A stretch of DNA of 64,000 bases from Escherichia coli (GTDB lineage Bacteria > Pseudomonadota > Gammaproteobacteria > Enterobacterales > Enterobacteriaceae): NCBI RefSeq assembly GCF_003790525.1, contig NZ_CP033635.1; one strand, 5' to 3'. Position 1 is the first letter of the stretch. Every line of letters starts with the position of its first letter. Below, piece after piece: positions 3,001 to 9,000 of the stretch. The position numbers were made by a program.

Positions 3001-6000
3001 CTGCTGGTGGATGTGATTTCACGATGACCGTTCATCTTAATTAAGGAATTTTCTGTTTCGCCAGTTTTATTATCGCTGGCGTGGCCCTGAGCGCCGCCAG
3101 TGTTCTCCTTGTGCGGATGCTCAGTGCCTTCCGTTTCCTCCGGATTTTTTTCCTGAGATTCAGCCTGATTTTCTCCATTGAATGTTTCCTGGTATGTTGC
3201 GTCACCCATTACTGAGCCACAATCAGGGCAGTTGCCGCCGCTGGTCTGACCGCAGGCGGTGCAGACTTTTTCCGGTTCCTGTTGCGCTACTGGCTCAGGT
3301 TGTTTCGTTTCTGGCTCGTTTTGTAACGCATTTTGGCTGTTTTGTTCCGCTTTCTGGTCGTTCTGTTCCGTTTCTTGCTGGTTCTGGTTCACTGAATCGC
3401 GAGTCTGGACTCCCTTAACCCATTTCAGATCATTCGGGTCGCTAATCCCTTCAACGAACTCACCACGCGAGGCCGCCAGTAATTTGTCTGCATCGACAGG
3501 ATTTTTGGGCGGAATGTTTTTCCTAGCTTCATGGAGTTCTGCCCGCAGTTTCTGATATTTCGCATCAACAGAATTCACCTGCGGCTGAGCATCCAGCGGC
3601 TGCGTGTCCGGATGATGTTCAGTTGTATCCGGTTCCACTGTTTCAGTCGTTGGCTGTTCATCTGCCATTGCGCCAGACGGTTGCGGTTTTTCTTCATCAT
3701 CCTGTTTTCCTTCTTCTGTTACACGCTGCGGCATTGGGGCAGAGGAACGACCGCAGGCAATATCCACGATTTCCGGATCAGGGTTGGCATGATCGGTTTC
3801 GGTCAGCACTTTATTCAGGTATTCGGTGACGCGCTGGGGCATAGCCTCTATACCAACCGGTGCTTCTTTCACGGAGGCAACCACGATGGCGCGGGAATAA
3901 TCCATCCCGCCTGGCATGTTCAGAAAAGCCTTAAGGAAGACGGAGAAACAGGGATCATTTTCTGCGATAATTTCGTTAACACGTCTGGTATGTGAAGGAT
4001 GCATGTTGTAAATATCCACATCCATCGAACGAGCCAGTTTTCCTGTAGCAACATCGAATGCCATTGACGCATTATCATGCACAAAACCTTCGCCGCGATC
4101 GGTAAGGATACCGCCGCCAGCGTTAGCGCCGGATGGTGTGCGACTGATGCGAGAAACACGATTTCCTTTCATCCACTCTTTTGTAAGCAGACCACGATCA
4201 GTGTAGTCAGCGTCCAGGTATGCTTCGATGAAGGAGGTCATCAGTCCCAGGTCTGAATTTACGGGGGCGGGAAAAACTTTGTCAGTGTCCCGCACCAGTT
4301 TGTACAAATCCCGAATCTCCAGCGGTTCGAGTTGCGCTGCTTTATTTGAGATGGCCAGCGCGGTAACGGCGGGAAGTTTTTCTTCCTGTGCGTTATGTAA
4401 TGAGCGCAGTTCATCCCGCGAAACGTGCGTTACTGGTTTTTCGCCGCCGTGTTGCGCCAGCCAGCGAACAGGCAGAATCTGACCTGAAACCGGCAGAAGC
4501 ATATTCTCCTCAATCTCAGTCATGTCTTCGCCATTAACATTGGTGTTGTCAGTGCTGGCTGGTTTGTCCTGCGCGGATGGCGGGGGCGCGATAAATATCA
4601 TTGTGATGCCATCTTCGCCGCCTTTTTCATACCGGTTACAGAATTCGGTATCAAACACGCCTTCCGGTGGAAGGTCATCAACAACGGGCAAATGGACGCG
4701 AACAGGTTTTTTAAAGTCGTCTTCATCATAATCGTTATCATCCATTGCGGTAATACAGCGGGAGATGGCAACAGATAATTTTTTTGCTGTAGTCCAGTAA
4801 AAACCACCTTTAATCCCAAGGCGTTTTCTGACTTTGTCATTTTTAGCTTCGCAATATAGCGCAAAAGTTTCTTTATCAGTGCTCATTGATAAACCTCATT
4901 GCTGTTTTAAGGTTGTGCGAATCCCTGCCATTGCTGGCATATGAGAATCGACCCTTATGTATTTATTAAGCTGAATGTCGTATTGGGTCAGTTATTTATT
5001 ACAGCTCACCATGCCTCCGCCTTTACAGGTAAACCATCACGACCGAGGAAGACTTTAATCATGCGGTCAGTAATGCATGTTTTTGTAGTGAAATCACGGA
5101 TATAAAGTTTTTGCTTTTCGATATTGTTTGCCGATGCAACATATGTCCGGCCTTCGTAAATAACGTAATCGCCGGGAGTGACGCACTGGCGTGGTATTTC
5201 ATCGGTTCCGAAGTGATGAGCAATCATAATAATCTCCTTAATAATTTGTGATATGAAGGAAATTCCAGAAAACTATTTAATACTCAGCAACTGCTCGACG
5301 GTCATATTTTTAATTGCGCCCCGGTTTATGAGAGTCCATCCCTGCTTTTCCAGATAAAAACGGAAAGTATCCAGAGTACAGACCAGTGCGCCATCAGGAA
5401 CGGTTTCGGTGAATTTGATGTAGCCGTGTTCGTCGAAGCGGATAACCAGGGTGTGGTCATCACCCGGGATTATTTTGTCAGCGGGTGTGGTGTTATTCCG
5501 GCGCAGTTCTTCCTCCATGCGGTCGAACTCGGCAATGTAGGCTTCCTTGAATGCAGCGGCTTTTTTGCCGGTGAAGCCCATCACCAGGAAAACGAAGCCG
5601 TTTTTGGTGATTTGGTAGGCATTGTAGGTATTGCCACGGTGCTCGAATTTAACCCGCGAAAAGTTGCTGGTTAAAAAGCGTTCAGAACATTCGAGGGCTT
5701 CTATTTTTTGAACAACATGGTGATGCTGCTTGCCGAAGAATTCTGCGATCGCAATAGACGTAGTGACAGCGCGACCATTTTCAATGGTTACGTCAGGGTG
5801 AGAAAGGGTAGTAGCCATGATGGCATCCTCAAGTGTTAAGTTAATTAACTCACCACCGAGGCTTTCCACGACCATAAGGGTGGCGAGACGTACAGGGGTG
5901 GAAATACCGGTCACTCGAGAACCCGGCCAGCCTTGCAGCTGCCCTGCACGCCCCACCATTATCTGAATGTGGCTGTGCTTAACGCATAAAAAAACCGCTT

Positions 6001-9000
6001 CGGCGCGGTTATGCGCTCGAGTAACTTTCGGGTTTCCACGCCCGGCACCCGTTTTATGAGGTGCAGGTGCACTATAATTCCACCCGTACTGGTTTTCAAT
6101 AGCTACATTCAACATTTTCTCTTACCTTTCATCACCGAAGTGAACTTTGTTGATGCGGTGCCAGGTGCCTCCAGGTGACGTTAACCAGTTAACAATTAAC
6201 GCCGGATACAGAGAATCCACCCATAACACTGTTTTTGGTTTTAACTGTTCCGCGTGCGCTGAGCCGCATTCACCACATCACAAAATTCACTTTAAAAAGG
6301 GCGGCAGAGCAGTCACGGAGTAAAACTGATACCGCCACGTCACCAGAAAATTGATAACAGAGGGCGTTGCAGCGGGGTTGTCACTCAGGCGCATGGTCAA
6401 CCTGACAACCCGGTGTCCTCAAGGGGAAGGGAACCCCGCCATGCTTACCGCCGCGCGCTTTCGTGTTGTGTGCCTGCTTTTAACCACGTCAGGCGAGGTG
6501 GTATCCTCTGAGGGGTCTGTTACCCGAGAGGAAATTGGTTATGAATACAATCAAGTTTTCTTGCCCAGAATGTGGTGGCGAAGTCTTCGACACATCCTTT
6601 AAGCCGCAGGGCTCTGACAGTTTCGCGGGAGCCATCTGCAAAAATTGTGGTCACCTTGTAACTGAAGATGAGTCCTCGCAATTCGATGAGGAAATCGTTG
6701 ACAATATCTTCGGTGTAATCACCGGAGCCTTTCTGAAGTAAAGGCACATACCGCTTAGTTACCGCTCTGATAATTCTTACCTGTCCGGCAATGGCGCTGA
6801 TGTCAATATAAAGCGCCATTGCTGCTTCTTTGCCGATCCCGGGATGCCTTCCATTCTGATGTTTGACTTCGCCCACTGAGAAATCCTCTGTTTCCCCTTA
6901 ACGCCGGGGTAGCGGAACAAAAACCTGCTGCATAGTTAAAGTTAAACCCTGCCGTCATGTTCATACGCCTCGGGCTGGCTACTTAACCCCTGACCACTGC
7001 CTGGTAACTCGAAGTATTGCCCTGCGTTCTGTGGGGCGGGGTGGGTTGGTATGAAAGAAAGGATACCCATGGGTATCCAAAAAGTAAATACCCATGGGTA
7101 ATTTTTTTTGATGTATCTTAACTGGTGACTGGTTGTTTGGTGAGTTATGATGCGTTTTGTGCTTTCTTTTTACGGATTTCTTCGTAGATCATATTGTAAT
7201 ACTGTTTTTTCTCTTCAAGAGTTTTTAATAAGTTATCCGCTTCACTTTCAGGCAGTTCGTCTAAGAGATCTAAAAAAATACGTTGTCGTGGCGTTAGAAC
7301 CCTTGTTTCATAATTGGAGGCTGTGTTCGTTGATGATGAAACGATACCATCCATCCATCCCCGGGGTAACCCAAAGGACTCTTCTATAATCTCCACCATA
7401 TCATCAGCGATCCGTTTTTTTCCTTTTTTCCCCTCTGGGTACAACATTCTTGATACATAAGAAGGCTCGCGACCGATCTTTCTGGCCACGTTAACCGCTT
7501 TACCATCGCATTTCTCATCACGAATTTTGATGAGTTGTTGTCGTCTAAATTCATATTTGTCCATAGGTAAATAATAGATGCGATTACCGCAAGGTAAACA
7601 ACCCAAGGGTATTGACTTTTGTTTACCTGTGGGTATTCTTTTGCTGTGTTTACTAAGGAGTAGCTATGGAAGAATTAAGAATATTTCTCAATTCTCTTTC
7701 GTCAGATGAACAGCGTATGTTTGCATGTGAGTGTGGTACTAGCATCGGTTATCTAAGAAAGGCATTGAGTAAAGGTCAAATGTTAGGGGCATCGTTATGT
7801 GTCCTTATTGAGCGAGCCAGTAATGGTGAAGTTACACGTCAGCAACTAAGGCCTTTTGATTGGATGAATATTTGGCCCGAGCTGGAAGATACCAAAACGT
7901 TAACACAACCACTTACTAGGAGCTTGATTCATGAAAATCAAGCATGAACACATCCGCATGGCGATGAATGCCTGGGCGCGTCCTGATGGCGAAAAAGTTC
8001 CGGCAGCTGAAATAACCCGGGCTTATTTTGAGCTGGGTATGACGTTCCCGGAACTGTATGACGACAGCCATCCCGAAGCCCTGGCCCGTAATACCCAGAA
8101 AATTTTCCGCTGGGTGGAGAAAGACACCCCTGATGCGGTTGTAAAAATTCAGGCGTTACTACCAGCGATCGAAAAGGCAATGCCGCCTTTGCTGGTGGCC
8201 AGAATGCGTAGCCACAGCTCAGCCTATTTCAGGGAGCTGCTGGAGACACGAGAACGGCTGGTGAGAGACGCTGATGATTTTATCGCAGTGGCAATCGCCG
8301 GTTTCAATCAGATGAATCGTGGTGGCCCGGCGGGTAATGCTGTGGTGATGCACTGACTGGCAATAGTTATACCGGATCGCTTTCGGTAGTACGTGATTAA
8401 GGAATTCGGTATCAGAAGAGGCAATTATGGCCGCATTACCATACATGCAACTGTACATCGCTGATTACCTGGCTGACACCATGCATTTATCAGCAGAGGA
8501 GCACGGTGCGTATTTGTTGCTGATGTTCAATTACTGGCAAACAGGAAAGCCAATACCTAAAAACAGGCTGGCAAAAATTGCCCGTCTGACTAATGAGCGA
8601 TGGGCTGATGTGGAGCCATCCTTGCGGGAGTTTTTTCACGATAACGGCGATGAATGGGTGCATCTTCGGATTGAGGAAGATCTGGCATCAGTCAGGGAAA
8701 AATTAACCAAAAAATCAGCCGCCGGAAAAGCATCTGTTCAGGCCAGAAGAAGCAGAAAGGAAGCAGATGTTCAAACAAAACAAGAGAGAGATTTAACAGG
8801 TGTTCAAACAAATGTTGGTGTGGTGTTTGAACATAACGCAAACACAAAGGCAACTAATAAAGATACAGATAAAGAATTAAACCCCACACATAACGCGCGC
8901 GTGCGCGAGAGTGCTCCGACCAGTGAACCGAACGGTACGCCGTTGCAGGTGGCGGAACCTGAATTTCCGGATGGCCTGAGTGAACCCATCGGGAAATTTC

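What the first reader, a model, noticed from the sequence alone, without database searches (positions are those of the whole stretch)
5273..7665. Immunity region: short repressor without peptidase domain, Rha-type antirepressor and tacccatgggta operators
The repressor (about 140 aa) lacks a LexA/S24-like autocleavage domain, so induction probably depends on an antirepressor rather than RecA-mediated cleavage. A Rha-family gene lies nearby. Four related 12-bp palindromic sites (two at 7061..7103, two at 7601..7635) flank the repressor gene and overlap a candidate PR promoter.
Basis: partly seen in the sequence, partly recalled or inferred. Interest (0 to 1): 0.4.

Follow-up and report, generated by a model that had tools for sequence, protein, structure and literature searches.

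The report
Short repressor plus RNA-gated antirepressor
This is the lysogeny switch of a lambda-like E. coli prophage: a small repressor that cannot cut itself, five matching operator sites, and a neighbouring antirepressor-type gene (Rha) silenced by a P1-like antisense RNA; every part is of a known kind, so it is a well-preserved but fairly ordinary example.

Summary
A 139-aa repressor (7145-7564, minus strand) has no S24 peptidase domain and is predicted all-helical. The motif TACC-N4-GGTA occurs exactly four times in 64 kb (0.41 expected), all beside this gene, plus a fifth one-mismatch site. They form a three-site OR over PR/PRM and a two-site OL over PL. The motif follows this DNA-binding domain in 86 of 86 related loci.

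- The same DNA-binding domain and operators occur in Salmonella fused to an S24 domain, so the induction module has been swapped.
- Rha (5273-5818) is the payload of a P1 immI / Gifsy-1 isrK-type cassette: promoter, IsrK decoy RNA, C4 antisense RNA, and a target covering the Rha ribosome-binding site. Three-way covariation supports this.

That Rha is this repressor's antirepressor is plausible but unproven.
- For: 64 of 70 Rha cassettes lie downstream of short repressors sharing the DicA-type C-terminal domain. The Rha C-terminal domain also occurs on ORF6N proteins of the AnrP type, and AnrP induces Gifsy-1.
- Against: 0 of 80 other loci with this repressor carry Rha, and no SOS link was found.

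Verdict: new member of a known kind, moderate interest.

The parts
7145..7564 (-). Repressor gene (CI analogue), 139 aa. N-terminal helical DNA-binding domain (1-72), disordered linker, DicA-type helical C-terminal domain (about 88-139).
   Evidence: ORF. No Pfam family. PHROG 5736 'transcriptional regulator', E 5e-70. NCBIfam DicA model matches residues 84-136, E 2.5e-5. AlphaFold2 model is all-helical, pLDDT 86. Best PDB fold match is Rep of the SPC32H Rep-Ant complex, 5d50.
7585..7596 (.). OR3-like operator TACCGCAAGGTA, overlapping the -35 of the PRM-like promoter.
   Evidence: Exact motif match. Same position in Salmonella and Yersinia relatives.
7600..7611 (.). OR2-like operator AACCCAAGGGTA (one mismatch), abutting the PR -35.
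   Evidence: A degenerate middle site is also present in relatives.
7624..7635 (.). OR1-like operator TACCTGTGGGTA, overlapping the PR -10.
7612..7639 (+). PR candidate, TTGACT-16-TATTCT, driving the cro-like and cII-like genes.
   Evidence: Promoter scan. Conserved position in relatives.
7571..7598 (-). PRM candidate, TTTACC-16-TATTAT. The -10 ends 6 nt before the repressor ATG and there is no Shine-Dalgarno sequence, so the mRNA is probably leaderless.
   Evidence: Promoter scan and sequence. Leaderless precedent for PaaR2 and lambda cI in PMC8630535.
7089..7100 (.). OL operator TACCCATGGGTA, just upstream of the PL -35.
7064..7075 (.). OL operator TACCCATGGGTA, overlapping the PL spacer and -10.
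7060..7088 (-). PL candidate, TTTACT-17-TATCCT (relatives have TATATT as -10).
   Evidence: Read from sequence. The same architecture, GGTA-TTTACT...GGTA-TAT, is conserved in L006, L009 and L010. It falls below the 9-of-12 threshold of the promoter scan.
7666..7947 (+). Cro analogue, YdaS-like HTH protein, 93 aa.
   Evidence: PF15943, E 9e-6 (below Pfam's cut-off). PHROG 35, E 2e-23. RefSeq calls it 'transcriptional regulator'.
7931..8356 (+). CII analogue, YdaT family, 141 aa.
   Evidence: PF06254, E 5e-9. PHROG 163 'CII-like transcriptional activator', E 2e-44. YdaT was proposed as the CII analogue in CP-933P.
5273..5818 (-). Rha-family gene, 181 aa. The N-terminal Phage_pRha domain spans about 8-107. 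The C-terminal beta-beta-beta-alpha domain (about 108-181) is shared with ORF6N and Bro-N antirepressor-like proteins.
   Evidence: PF09669, E 2e-26. TIGR02681. C-domain homologues fused to other N-domains. AlphaFold2 model of the C-domain, pLDDT 85.5. Codon periodicity starts at this ATG.
5826..5869 (-). C4 target region in the Rha leader: b2 GUGGAAA (5869-5863) and a2 CACUUGAG (5835-5828), the latter overlapping the Rha Shine-Dalgarno GAGGA (5830-5826).
   Evidence: Sequence. Covariation with the C4 loops. Mean cognate duplex energy -28.7 against -19.3 kcal/mol for non-cognate pairs.
5876..5963 (-). C4-type antisense RNA, with a' CUCGAGUGA at 5919-5911 and b' UUUCCAC at 5904-5898.
   Evidence: Rfam RF01695, 73.8 bits against a gathering score of 45, E 1e-13.
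5988..6064 (-). IsrK-type sRNA. It carries decoy sites b1 GUGGAAA (6039-6033) and a1 UUACUCGAG (6024-6016) and ends in an intrinsic terminator (6010-5993).
   Evidence: Rfam RF01394, 67.2 bits against a gathering score of 50. RF03163 c4-a1b1, 24.9 bits (below its gathering score). Terminator scan. Covariation of a1/b1 with a'/b': 95% of cells paired, 12 of 16 pairs with changes on both sides, 0 of 500 shuffles as high.
6071..6099 (-). PisrK promoter, TTGAAA-17-TATAGT (10 of 12 consensus matches).
   Evidence: A TSS about 7 nt downstream coincides with the start of the Rfam isrK match.
6299..6348 (-). DicF sRNA in the PL operon, followed by a truncated dicB (about 6147-6230).
   Evidence: Rfam RF00039, 65.1 bits. 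RefSeq lists a dicB pseudogene.

Best explanation
The region is the immunity (lysogeny-switch) region of a lambdoid prophage integrated at ompW in E. coli.

(1) Shown by sequence and comparison. A 139-aa repressor binds TACC-N4-GGTA operators. There are three at OR, laid out as in lambda so that OR1 and OR2 cover PR and OR3 covers PRM. There are two at OL bracketing PL. The repressor has a helical DNA-binding domain and a DicA-type helical C-terminal domain, and no S24 peptidase. It therefore cannot be inactivated by RecA-stimulated self-cleavage.

(2) Shown. About 1.3 kb downstream in the PL operon lies a self-contained P1 immI / Gifsy-1 isrK-type cassette. A near-consensus promoter makes IsrK, and most transcripts stop at its terminator. 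Read-through carries a C4 antisense RNA and the Rha gene. The two single-stranded C4 segments, a' and b', are complementary to a2/b2, which cover the Rha ribosome-binding site. They are equally complementary to decoy sites a1/b1 in IsrK.

(3) Inferred from P1 and Gifsy-1. C4 keeps Rha untranslated in the lysogen. A rise in free IsrK, or a burst of PL read-through, titrates C4 and lets Rha be made.

(4) Inferred and untested. Rha acts as an antirepressor through its C-terminal domain. It binds short repressors of the DicA/GfoR type, possibly at their shared C-terminal domain, and releases them from the operators. This would induce, or lock in induction of, this prophage and possibly heteroimmune neighbours.

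Because Rha is optional for this repressor in nature, it is more likely an accessory or cross-talk trigger than the sole induction route.
For: Operators:
- 4 exact sites against 0.41 expected, all beside the repressor gene.
- The motif and its spacing (OR 15-16 and 24 bp, OL 25-26 bp) are conserved in Salmonella and Yersinia phages with the same DNA-binding domain.
- Present in 86 of 86 loci with the domain, against one stray match in 78 loci without it.

No peptidase. Siblings at 70-85% identity in the DNA-binding domain do carry PF00717, so the absence is a true domain difference.

DicA-type C-terminal domain: NCBIfam, E 2.5e-5. An HMM built from the window repressor and six neighbour classes also hits DicA (2e-19) and GfoR (2e-8), which were not used to build it. 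Within the 64-kb window it hits only the repressor ORF.

RNA cassette:
- Rfam hits above gathering score for C4, isrK and DicF; promoter and terminator.
- C4 and isrK lie at a fixed distance upstream of 77 of 80 Rha homologues.
- Three-way compensatory changes. Cognate against non-cognate duplex energy is -28.7 against -19.3 kcal/mol.

Antirepressor role:
- The same leader gates P1 Ant (PMC8201110) and Gifsy-1 AnrP. AnrP expression raises antQ and induces Gifsy-1 (PMC4825925).
- The Rha C-domain is found fused to an AnrP-like ORF6N domain (P0138).
- 64 of 70 Rha cassettes lie 1-5 kb downstream of short repressors that carry the DicA-type C-terminal domain on at least 6 unrelated DNA-binding domains.
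- Repressors of this class are experimentally inactivated by antirepressors: GfoR by GfoA (PMC3121763) and DicA by Rem (PMC10448788).
- There is weak profile similarity between the Rha C-domain and Rem: PHROG 340 at E 1e-4 against Rem at 4e-21; hhalign E 6e-4, probability 28%.
Against: - None of 80 IMG/VR loci with a >=99% identical repressor has isrK, C4 or Rha in the flanks held; up to 10 kb was requested per side and many hold 5-10 kb downstream.
- Only 2 of 80 Rha loci carry this repressor.
- The cassette replaces the 3' part of dicB, which looks like a mosaic insertion.
- The association with DicA-type repressors may only reflect a shared Qin/Rac-like backbone.
- Rha and Gifsy-1 AnrP show no BLAST similarity.
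- The Rha C-domain to Rem link is weak, and the C-domain model has no structural match.
- There is no LexA box near Rha, so no SOS link.
- An antirepressor inside the repressed PL operon cannot by itself start induction unless its own promoter and RNA switch fire.
- P22 Ant shows that immI-type antirepressors can be dispensable for induction of their own prophage.
Confidence: 0.55

Rival explanations
1. The immunity switch is as described, but the isrK-C4-Rha cassette is an unrelated mosaic passenger. Rha would then be a DNA-binding regulator, or an antirepressor aimed at other prophages' repressors, and would play no part in inactivating this repressor.
For: - 0 of 80 same-repressor loci carry the cassette, and only 2 of 80 Rha loci carry this repressor.
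- The cassette sits where dicB/ydfD normally lie and truncates dicB.
- The Rha N-domain is a DNA-binding-type domain found across many phage proteins annotated only as 'regulator'.
- Fels-1 FsoA is an antirepressor in a left operon that acts on another prophage and is not needed for its own.
Against: - 64 of 70 cassettes lie next to a repressor with the same C-terminal domain as this one.
- The leader type gates proven antirepressors in P1 and Gifsy-1.
- No other antirepressor-like gene was detected in the window by homology.
Confidence: 0.3
2. Induction is triggered by an unrecognised small SOS-controlled antirepressor of the Gifsy GfoA / Qin Rem kind. One candidate is the 92-aa ORF at 13732-14010, in the position rem occupies in Qin. 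Another is a gene once downstream of the LexA-boxed dinI and lost to IS1414. Rha would be at most a secondary amplifier.
For: - Short DicA/GfoR-type repressors are known to be inactivated by 70-85-aa antirepressors.
- Two good LexA boxes (54085-54100, 54113-54128) precede a dinI homologue, and IS1414 lies directly downstream.
- The 92-aa ORF lies immediately upstream of the DUF968 gene and further upstream of Q, as rem does in Qin. It is preceded by CTGTTGACGACAACAG overlapping a TTGACG -35.
Against: - No GfoA or Rem homologue was found in the window by tblastn.
- The 92-aa ORF belongs to a PHROG of unknown function.
- Its palindrome has a G+C-rich centre unlike known LexA boxes (own knowledge, not scored).
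- In a related prophage dinI stands alone at the prophage end.
Confidence: 0.2
3. No antirepressor is needed. The switch flips spontaneously or under stress through the Cro-like YdaS protein, as a bistable switch, as described for DicA/DicC and PaaR2/YdaS.
For: - The cro-like and cII-like genes and a tripartite OR are intact.
- dicBp switches on in about 1% of cells independently of RecA and Rem, and responds to urea and heat.
- CP-933P shows bistability with PaaR2/YdaS/YdaT.
Against: This does not explain the conserved, tightly regulated Rha cassette. It is also compatible with, rather than exclusive of, antirepressor action.
Confidence: 0.2
4. The repressor is inactivated by RecA-dependent self-cleavage after all, through a cryptic site or domain.
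For: Close siblings of its DNA-binding domain are S24 proteins.
Against: - There is no S24 match.
- At 139 aa, the residues after the DNA-binding domain form two confident helices, not the beta fold of S24.
- The alignment shows the S24 part replaced rather than degraded.
- Gifsy repressors of the same class are not cleaved.
Confidence: 0.03

Closest known systems
Gifsy-1 of Salmonella: repressor GfoR with antirepressors, and the isrK-orf45-anrP locus (PMC3121763, PMC4825925)
   Same: - Short (136-aa) non-cleavable repressor with the DicA-type C-terminal domain.
- Homologous isrK + C4-like leader with the same promoter-terminator-target layout.
- A payload gene of antirepressor type, and a dinI homologue with a LexA box elsewhere in the prophage.
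   Different: - The DNA-binding domain is unrelated: GfoR is HTH_3, this one has no Pfam family.
- The payload N-domain is Rha rather than ORF6N, with no BLAST similarity.
- orf45 is fused in frame to Rha instead of ending in AUGA.
- The cassette lies in the PL operon rather than next to antQ.
- No gfoA-like gene follows dinI.
Phage P1/P7 immI: c4 antisense RNA - icd - ant (Citron and Schuster 1990, cited in PMC8201110)
   Same: - A C4 covariance-model match well above threshold.
- The a'/b' loops pair with a2/b2 over the ribosome-binding site of the downstream reading frame, and with a1/b1 upstream.
- Specificity variants arise by compensatory changes, like P1 against P7.
   Different: - The host repressor is a lambdoid CI analogue, not P1 C1.
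- The payload is Rha rather than Ant1/Ant2.
- The a1/b1 segment ends in a terminator and forms a separate sRNA (IsrK).
- There is no recognisable icd.
Qin prophage DicA / DicC / dicBF / Rem (PMC10448788)
   Same: - The repressor C-terminal domain is the same.
- DicF lies in the leftward operon.
- The repressor is co-oriented with the dicF operon.
- DicA is relieved by an antirepressor.
   Different: - The DNA-binding domain and operators differ.
- dicB is truncated here.
- There is no Rem homologue. The Rha C-domain is at best remotely Rem-like.
CP-933P PaaR2 / YdaS / YdaT switch (PMC8630535) and lambda CI/Cro/CII
   Same: - Divergent PRM/PR with multiple shared operators, and a second operator cluster at PL.
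- Cro-like YdaS and CII-like YdaT genes.
- Probably a leaderless repressor mRNA.
   Different: - The operators here are 12-bp TACC-N4-GGTA sites, against 18-bp GTTTAGTAA-type repeats in CP-933P.
- No paaA2-parE2 genes follow the repressor.
- Lambda CI carries an S24 domain.
Salmonella phage SPC32H Rep-Ant (PDB 5d50)
   Same: Best structural match of the repressor model (Foldseek E 7e-4). It is a non-cleavable repressor disassembled by an antirepressor.
   Different: 16% identity, a poor global superposition (TM about 0.45), and the Ant protein is unrelated to Rha.

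Membership tests
LexA/CI-type self-cleaving repressors (Peptidase_S24, PF00717) | C-terminal S24 peptidase domain with a Ser/Lys dyad | tested here: not met
   No Pfam hit at E<=0.1. The model is all-helical. In the alignment the S24 segment of sibling proteins has no counterpart.
LexA/CI-type self-cleaving repressors (Peptidase_S24, PF00717) | RecA-stimulated cleavage in vivo | not testable with these tools
   Needs a Western blot after mitomycin C.
DicA/GfoR/RacR-type short non-cleavable prophage repressors | About 130-160 aa, with an N-terminal helix-turn-helix DNA-binding domain | tested here: met
   139 aa. Helical domain at 1-72 with an HTH-like segment. Fold matches are Xre/Cro-type regulators. 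It is not recognised by Pfam HTH_3.
DicA/GfoR/RacR-type short non-cleavable prophage repressors | DicA-type C-terminal helical domain (motif ...Q..LL.LF..LPE.E...) | tested here: met
   NCBIfam PRK09706 (DicA) matches residues 84-136, E 2.5e-5, below its full-length cut-off. An HMM built here from the window repressor and six neighbour classes also hits DicA (2e-19) and GfoR (2e-8), which were not in its seed.
DicA/GfoR/RacR-type short non-cleavable prophage repressors | Inactivated by binding of an antirepressor protein | not testable with these tools
   Shown for GfoR/GtgR and DicA in the literature, not for this protein.
Lambda-type operator architecture | Three sites between divergent PRM and PR, and a second cluster at PL | tested here: met
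   Sites at 7585, 7600 and 7624 overlap the PRM -35, abut the PR -35 and overlap the PR -10. Sites at 7064 and 7089 bracket the PL candidate.
Lambda-type operator architecture | Repressor binding to these sites | not testable with these tools
   Only co-occurrence is available: 86 of 86 loci with the DNA-binding domain.
C4 antisense RNA (Rfam RF01695; P1/P7 immI) | Match to the covariance model above the gathering score | tested here: met
   73.8 bits against 45, full length 1-87.
C4 antisense RNA (Rfam RF01695; P1/P7 immI) | Loops a'/b' complementary to a2/b2 over the ribosome-binding site of the downstream frame, and to a1/b1 upstream | tested here: met
   Complementarity read from the sequence. 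Covariation across 35 sequences: 95% of cells paired and a score of 0.68 against 0.17 in shuffles. b2 is an exact complement of b' in all 16 types. Duplex energies.
C4 antisense RNA (Rfam RF01695; P1/P7 immI) | The downstream gene encodes an antirepressor | tested here: inconclusive
   The payload is a Rha-family protein. PHROG relatives are annotated as antirepressors, but no function was tested.
IsrK sRNA locus (Rfam RF01394; Gifsy-1 isrK-orf45-anrP) | Covariance-model match, own promoter and intrinsic terminator | tested here: met
   67.2 bits against 50. Promoter with 10 of 12 consensus matches and a terminator at 5993-6010.
IsrK sRNA locus (Rfam RF01394; Gifsy-1 isrK-orf45-anrP) | A separate orf45 whose stop overlaps the payload start (AUGA), giving translational coupling | tested here: not met
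   Here the orf45-equivalent AUG (5959) is in frame with Rha and no stop intervenes. The paper notes the same fusion in S. dysenteriae.
IsrK sRNA locus (Rfam RF01394; Gifsy-1 isrK-orf45-anrP) | The payload is AnrP (ORF6N) | tested here: not met
   No BLAST similarity between Rha and AnrP. AnrP is PF10543. The Rha C-domain does occur on ORF6N proteins.
Rha family (PF09669 / TIGR02681) | Phage_pRha domain above the curated cut-off | tested here: met
   92.6 bits against 29.9; 88.7 bits against 45.95.
Gifsy-type LexA-controlled dinI-antirepressor operon | LexA box upstream of a dinI homologue | tested here: met
   CTGTGTTTGTATACAG and CTGTATGGATAAACAG at 54085-54128, upstream of the dinI-like gene at 53851-54069.
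Gifsy-type LexA-controlled dinI-antirepressor operon | Small antirepressor gene downstream of dinI | tested here: not met
   IS1414 follows dinI. There is no GfoA or Rem homologue in the window.

The most novel reading that the evidence does not exclude
The C-terminal 75-residue domain of this Rha protein would be a portable antirepressor module. It is also found on ORF6N, Bro-N and other N-domains behind the same IsrK/C4 leader, and it is remotely Rem-like. The module would recognise the conserved DicA-type C-terminal domain rather than the variable DNA-binding domain. One RNA-gated protein could then switch on many heteroimmune prophages at once. The repressor cassette is in about 15% of complete E. 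coli genomes and the Rha cassette in about 7%. The S24-for-DicA-C-domain swap on an unchanged DNA-binding domain would then mark a change from SOS-wired to antirepressor-wired induction.
Probability: 0.25. Interest if true: 0.6.

Novelty: new member of a known kind. Interest (0 to 1): 0.35.

Why it matters
If the model holds, this cassette gives a compact, experimentally tractable case of three things:
- A widespread (821 of 5426 complete E. coli genomes) but unannotated repressor family, with a cleanly predicted operator code.
- A natural domain swap that changes how a prophage senses its host without changing what DNA it binds.
- An RNA decoy / antisense / target triad that comes in many orthogonal specificities and gates an antirepressor.

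It would help predict which E. coli prophages are SOS-inducible and which can cross-induce each other. That is relevant for prophages carrying toxin or virulence genes. In practical terms, it also flags a likely mis-annotation: the 'Ash'/long Rha ORF lies over RNA genes.

Tried and rejected
- Cryptic peptidase in the repressor: rejected.
- Rha as a sequence homologue of Gifsy-1 AnrP: BLAST finds nothing for the full length or the C-terminus. Only the leader RNA and, through intermediates, the C-domain connect them.
- GfoA or Rem homologues in the window: none.
- Rha C-domain against Rem: pairwise BLAST is not significant. hhalign gives only 28% probability. I treat this as a lead, not a result.
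- A word-indexed protein search with the Rha C-domain returned only close fragments.
- Contexts of distant Rha C-domain proteins (P0142, P0138, P0146) were too short or degraded to show their repressors.
- My first guess, that the 280-aa ORF would be broken in relatives, was wrong: the frame stays open in 36 of 40 variants. The codon-position test then showed that it is not under protein-level constraint.
- The fixed-column count of a'-a2 pairs failed because the register shifts by 2 nt between types. I replaced it with duplex energies.
- A LexA-box scan found nothing near Rha or the repressor.
- The miRNA-family hits at 7064-7100 are just the two palindromic operators.

Full report
**Setting.** The window is E. 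coli chromosome carrying a lambdoid prophage inserted next to ompW. It runs from integrase, excisionase and a RecE-like exonuclease at the left to tail genes, a dinI-like gene and a partial ompW copy near 54.9 kb. The finding covers the early-left / immunity part of that prophage.

**Observation.**
- The ORF at 7145-7564 (-) encodes 139 aa. It has no Pfam match at all and is 'hypothetical protein' in RefSeq.
- PHROGs calls it a transcriptional regulator (E 5e-70).
- The NCBIfam DicA model matches only its last 53 residues (E 2.5e-5).
- The AlphaFold2 model (pLDDT 86) is entirely helical. It has a four-helix N-terminal domain (1-72), a disordered linker (76-87) and a helix-turn-long-helix C-terminus (92-138). 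Its best PDB neighbour is the non-cleavable Rep of the Salmonella phage SPC32H Rep-Ant complex (5d50, E 7e-4). There is no room for, and no sign of, the beta-rich S24 fold.

**Operators.**
- Exact TACCNNNNGGTA occurs four times in 64 kb against 0.41 expected (0 of 100 shuffles reach 4). The sites are at 7064, 7089, 7585 and 7624. A one-mismatch copy lies at 7600.
- The right cluster lies between the repressor ATG and the cro-like gene. Site 7624-7635 overlaps the -10 and site 7600-7611 abuts the -35 of TTGACT-16-TATTCT (PR).
- Site 7585-7596 overlaps the -35 of TTTACC-16-TATTAT, which points at the repressor gene (PRM). That -10 ends six bases before the ATG and no Shine-Dalgarno sequence is present. 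The mRNA is therefore probably leaderless, as shown for lambda cI and PaaR2.
- The left pair brackets TTTACT-17-TATCCT on the minus strand (PL).

**Comparative support for the operators.**
- The repressor's N-terminal 75 residues are 70-85% identical to the N-termini of many 221-242-aa proteins from Salmonella, Yersinia, Edwardsiella, Pantoea and Klebsiella that carry PF00717 (Peptidase_S24). They also match other 135-140-aa proteins that do not.
- I fetched Salmonella loci encoding the S24 form and Yersinia loci encoding a short form. All have TACC-N4-GGTA sites in the same arrangement. Two exact sites and a degenerate middle one lie between the repressor and the divergent gene, spaced 16 and 24 bp. 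A pair 25-26 bp apart lies further downstream around a conserved TTTACT...TATATT promoter.
- Across everything fetched, the motif is present at the expected places in all 86 loci that encode this DNA-binding domain. It appears only once, as a stray, in the 78 Rha loci that do not.
- So the palindromes are very probably the operators of this DNA-binding domain. The domain exists in nature with either a self-cleaving or a non-cleaving C-terminal module.

**The Rha gene and what precedes it.**
- Rha (PF09669, E 2e-26) starts at ATG 5818.
- Rfam finds, on the same strand just upstream, a C4 antisense RNA (5876-5963, 73.8 bits, gathering score 45) and an IsrK sRNA (5988-6064, 67.2 bits, gathering score 50). 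The IsrK match overlaps the c4-a1b1 motif. DicF lies further upstream (6299-6348, 65.1 bits).
- A 10-of-12 promoter (6099-6071) is placed to start transcription at the first base of IsrK, and an intrinsic terminator (6010-5993) ends it.
- The two single-stranded C4 segments, CUCGAGUGA and UUUCCAC, are complementary to CACUUGAG, which overlaps the Rha Shine-Dalgarno GAGGA, and to GUGGAAA in the Rha leader. They are equally complementary to UUACUCGAG and GUGGAAA in IsrK.

**Covariation in the RNA cassette.**
- In 80 loci encoding Rha homologues (72-98% identity), 77 have C4 and IsrK at the same distances.
- Their sequences fall into at least eight 'a' and six 'b' specificity types in which decoy, antisense and target change together.
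- Counted formally on 35 distinct sequences, the IsrK-C4 pairs are 95% paired. Twelve of 16 pairs have changes on both sides. The covariation score is 0.68 against 0.17 for shuffles (0 of 500 as high) and at most 0.12 for slid controls.
- Cognate C4-target duplexes average -28.7 kcal/mol against -19.3 for non-cognate ones.
- This is the P1/P7 immI design (c4-icd-ant) and the Gifsy-1 isrK-orf45-anrP design. In Gifsy-1, IsrK supplied in trans unlocks translation of the downstream antirepressor-like gene, and expression of that gene induces Gifsy-1.

**The annotated 280-aa ORF.**
- RefSeq extends Rha to 6115, and Pfam's 'Ash' family matches that extension.
- The frame is indeed open for about 100 codons in 36 of 40 variants.
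- However, nucleotide diversity there shows no codon periodicity (0.17/0.19/0.20 in C4; 0.16/0.18/0.18 in IsrK). Within Rha it is 0.14/0.12/0.30 and 0.11/0.05/0.26.
- The extension therefore evolves as RNA, not as protein. The in-frame AUG at 5959 corresponds to the Gifsy-1 orf45 start and may serve for translational coupling only.

**Is Rha this repressor's antirepressor? Evidence for.**
- (i) The leader type.
- (ii) In 64 of 70 Rha loci with enough upstream sequence, a short repressor (129-154 aa) lies 1-5 kb upstream on the same strand. These repressors have at least six unrelated DNA-binding domains but one shared C-terminal domain, the one found in DicA, GfoR and the window's repressor. 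Of the six exceptions, the two whose ORFs I listed (L124, L142) have IS transposases directly upstream, and a third (L100) has a C-terminal-domain repressor on the other side and strand.
- (iii) The Rha C-terminal domain (a small beta-beta-beta-alpha fold) recurs fused to an AnrP-like ORF6N domain, to Bro-N and to another N-domain, often behind the same leader. It aligns with the C-terminus of AnrP itself in a nine-sequence alignment.
- (iv) DicA- and GfoR-type repressors are experimentally relieved by antirepressors.
- (v) Two profile methods align the Rha C-domain weakly with Rem, the DicA antirepressor.

**Evidence against.**
- None of 80 loci with a >=99% identical repressor has the cassette in the flanks held, and only 2 of 80 Rha loci have this repressor.
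- In complete E. coli genomes the repressor cassette is in 821 and the Rha cassette (>=80% coverage) in 393 of 5426. Only four genomes cover >=80% of the 5000-8400 query in one place, with further genomes (for example H5 and H7-H15) at 78-79%.
- The cassette replaces the end of dicB.
- The linkage to DicA-type repressors could be a backbone effect.
- The Rem similarity is weak, and fold searches found nothing.

**SOS link.**
- The only convincing LexA boxes are two upstream of a dinI homologue at the prophage's right end, which is followed by IS1414. In a related prophage dinI stands alone.
- No GfoA or Rem homologue is detectable.
- A 92-aa ORF of unknown function occupies rem's position, immediately upstream of the DUF968 gene and further upstream of Q. 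It has a CTGT-N8-ACAG palindrome over its putative -35. I could not score that palindrome.

**Conclusion.**
- The switch itself (repressor, five operators, PR/PRM/PL, Cro and CII analogues) and the RNA gating of Rha translation are well supported.
- That Rha inactivates this particular repressor is the best available hypothesis for the cassette's function, but it rests on analogy and association.
- All components belong to described kinds, so this is a new member of a known kind.
- The S24-for-DicA-C-domain swap on a fixed operator specificity, and the possible targeting of the C-terminal domain by a portable Rha C-domain, are the points worth an experiment.

Noticed in passing
window 5819-6115 (-): RefSeq's 280-aa 'Rha family' ORF and the Pfam 'Ash' family (PF10554) match lie on top of the isrK and C4 RNA genes and their promoter. 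The frame stays open in 36 of 40 variants, but the region shows no codon-position bias. The 'Ash' N-terminus here looks like translated RNA leader rather than a protein domain.
   Followed up: yes
L092-L172, region homologous to window 5816-6064: The IsrK decoy / C4 antisense / target triad exists in at least 8 'a' and 6 'b' sequence specificities with three-way compensatory changes. That amounts to many orthogonal RNA immunity types among E. coli and Salmonella prophages, combined semi-independently.
   Followed up: yes
proteins P0031-P0112; loci L006-L008: The same DNA-binding domain (70-85% identity) and the same TACC-N4-GGTA operator layout occur in Salmonella and other enterobacterial phages fused to a Peptidase_S24 domain. 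This is a natural swap of the induction module.
   Followed up: yes
window 53851-54128; 52501-53709; about 54306-54400: A dinI-like gene with two good LexA boxes lies at the prophage right end, immediately followed by IS1414. Just outside it is a fragment resembling the 3' end of tmRNA (ssrA). In a related genome the homologous dinI lies next to ssrA, which suggests this end module came from an ssrA-integrating phage.
   Followed up: partly
window 13647-14010 (+): A 92-aa ORF (PHROG 1212, function unknown) sits where rem, the DicA antirepressor gene, sits in Qin: immediately upstream of the DUF968 gene and further upstream of Q. It is preceded by CTGTTGACGACAACAG overlapping a TTGACG -35. This may be a weak LexA box or the ParD operator of the divergent parDE pair (13034-13659).
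   Followed up: partly
window 7564-7598 (-): The PRM-like -10 ends 6 nt before the repressor ATG and there is no Shine-Dalgarno sequence. The repressor mRNA is probably leaderless, as for lambda cI and PaaR2.
   Followed up: partly
window 6146-6348 and 6541-6741: DicF is intact but dicB is truncated by the Rha cassette. An ECs_2282-family zinc-ribbon gene (66 aa, + strand) lies antisense to the PL transcript, between OL and DicF. In relatives that position holds ydfA/B/C-like genes.
   Followed up: no
P0134, P0138, P0146 / L176: The Rha C-terminal domain is also found fused to ORF6N, to Bro-N (apparently frameshifted in L176) and to another N-terminal domain. This is domain shuffling typical of phage antirepressor-like proteins.
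   Followed up: partly
NZ_CP128970.1 (TUM1886), 2106482-2107106 and about 3049000: That genome carries two copies of the same immunity cassette (>=99.8% identical), that is, two homoimmune prophages in one cell.
   Followed up: no
window 5006-5227 (-): A Kil (FtsZ inhibitor) homologue lies directly downstream of Rha, so read-through of the Rha cassette would also express a cell-division inhibitor.
   Followed up: no
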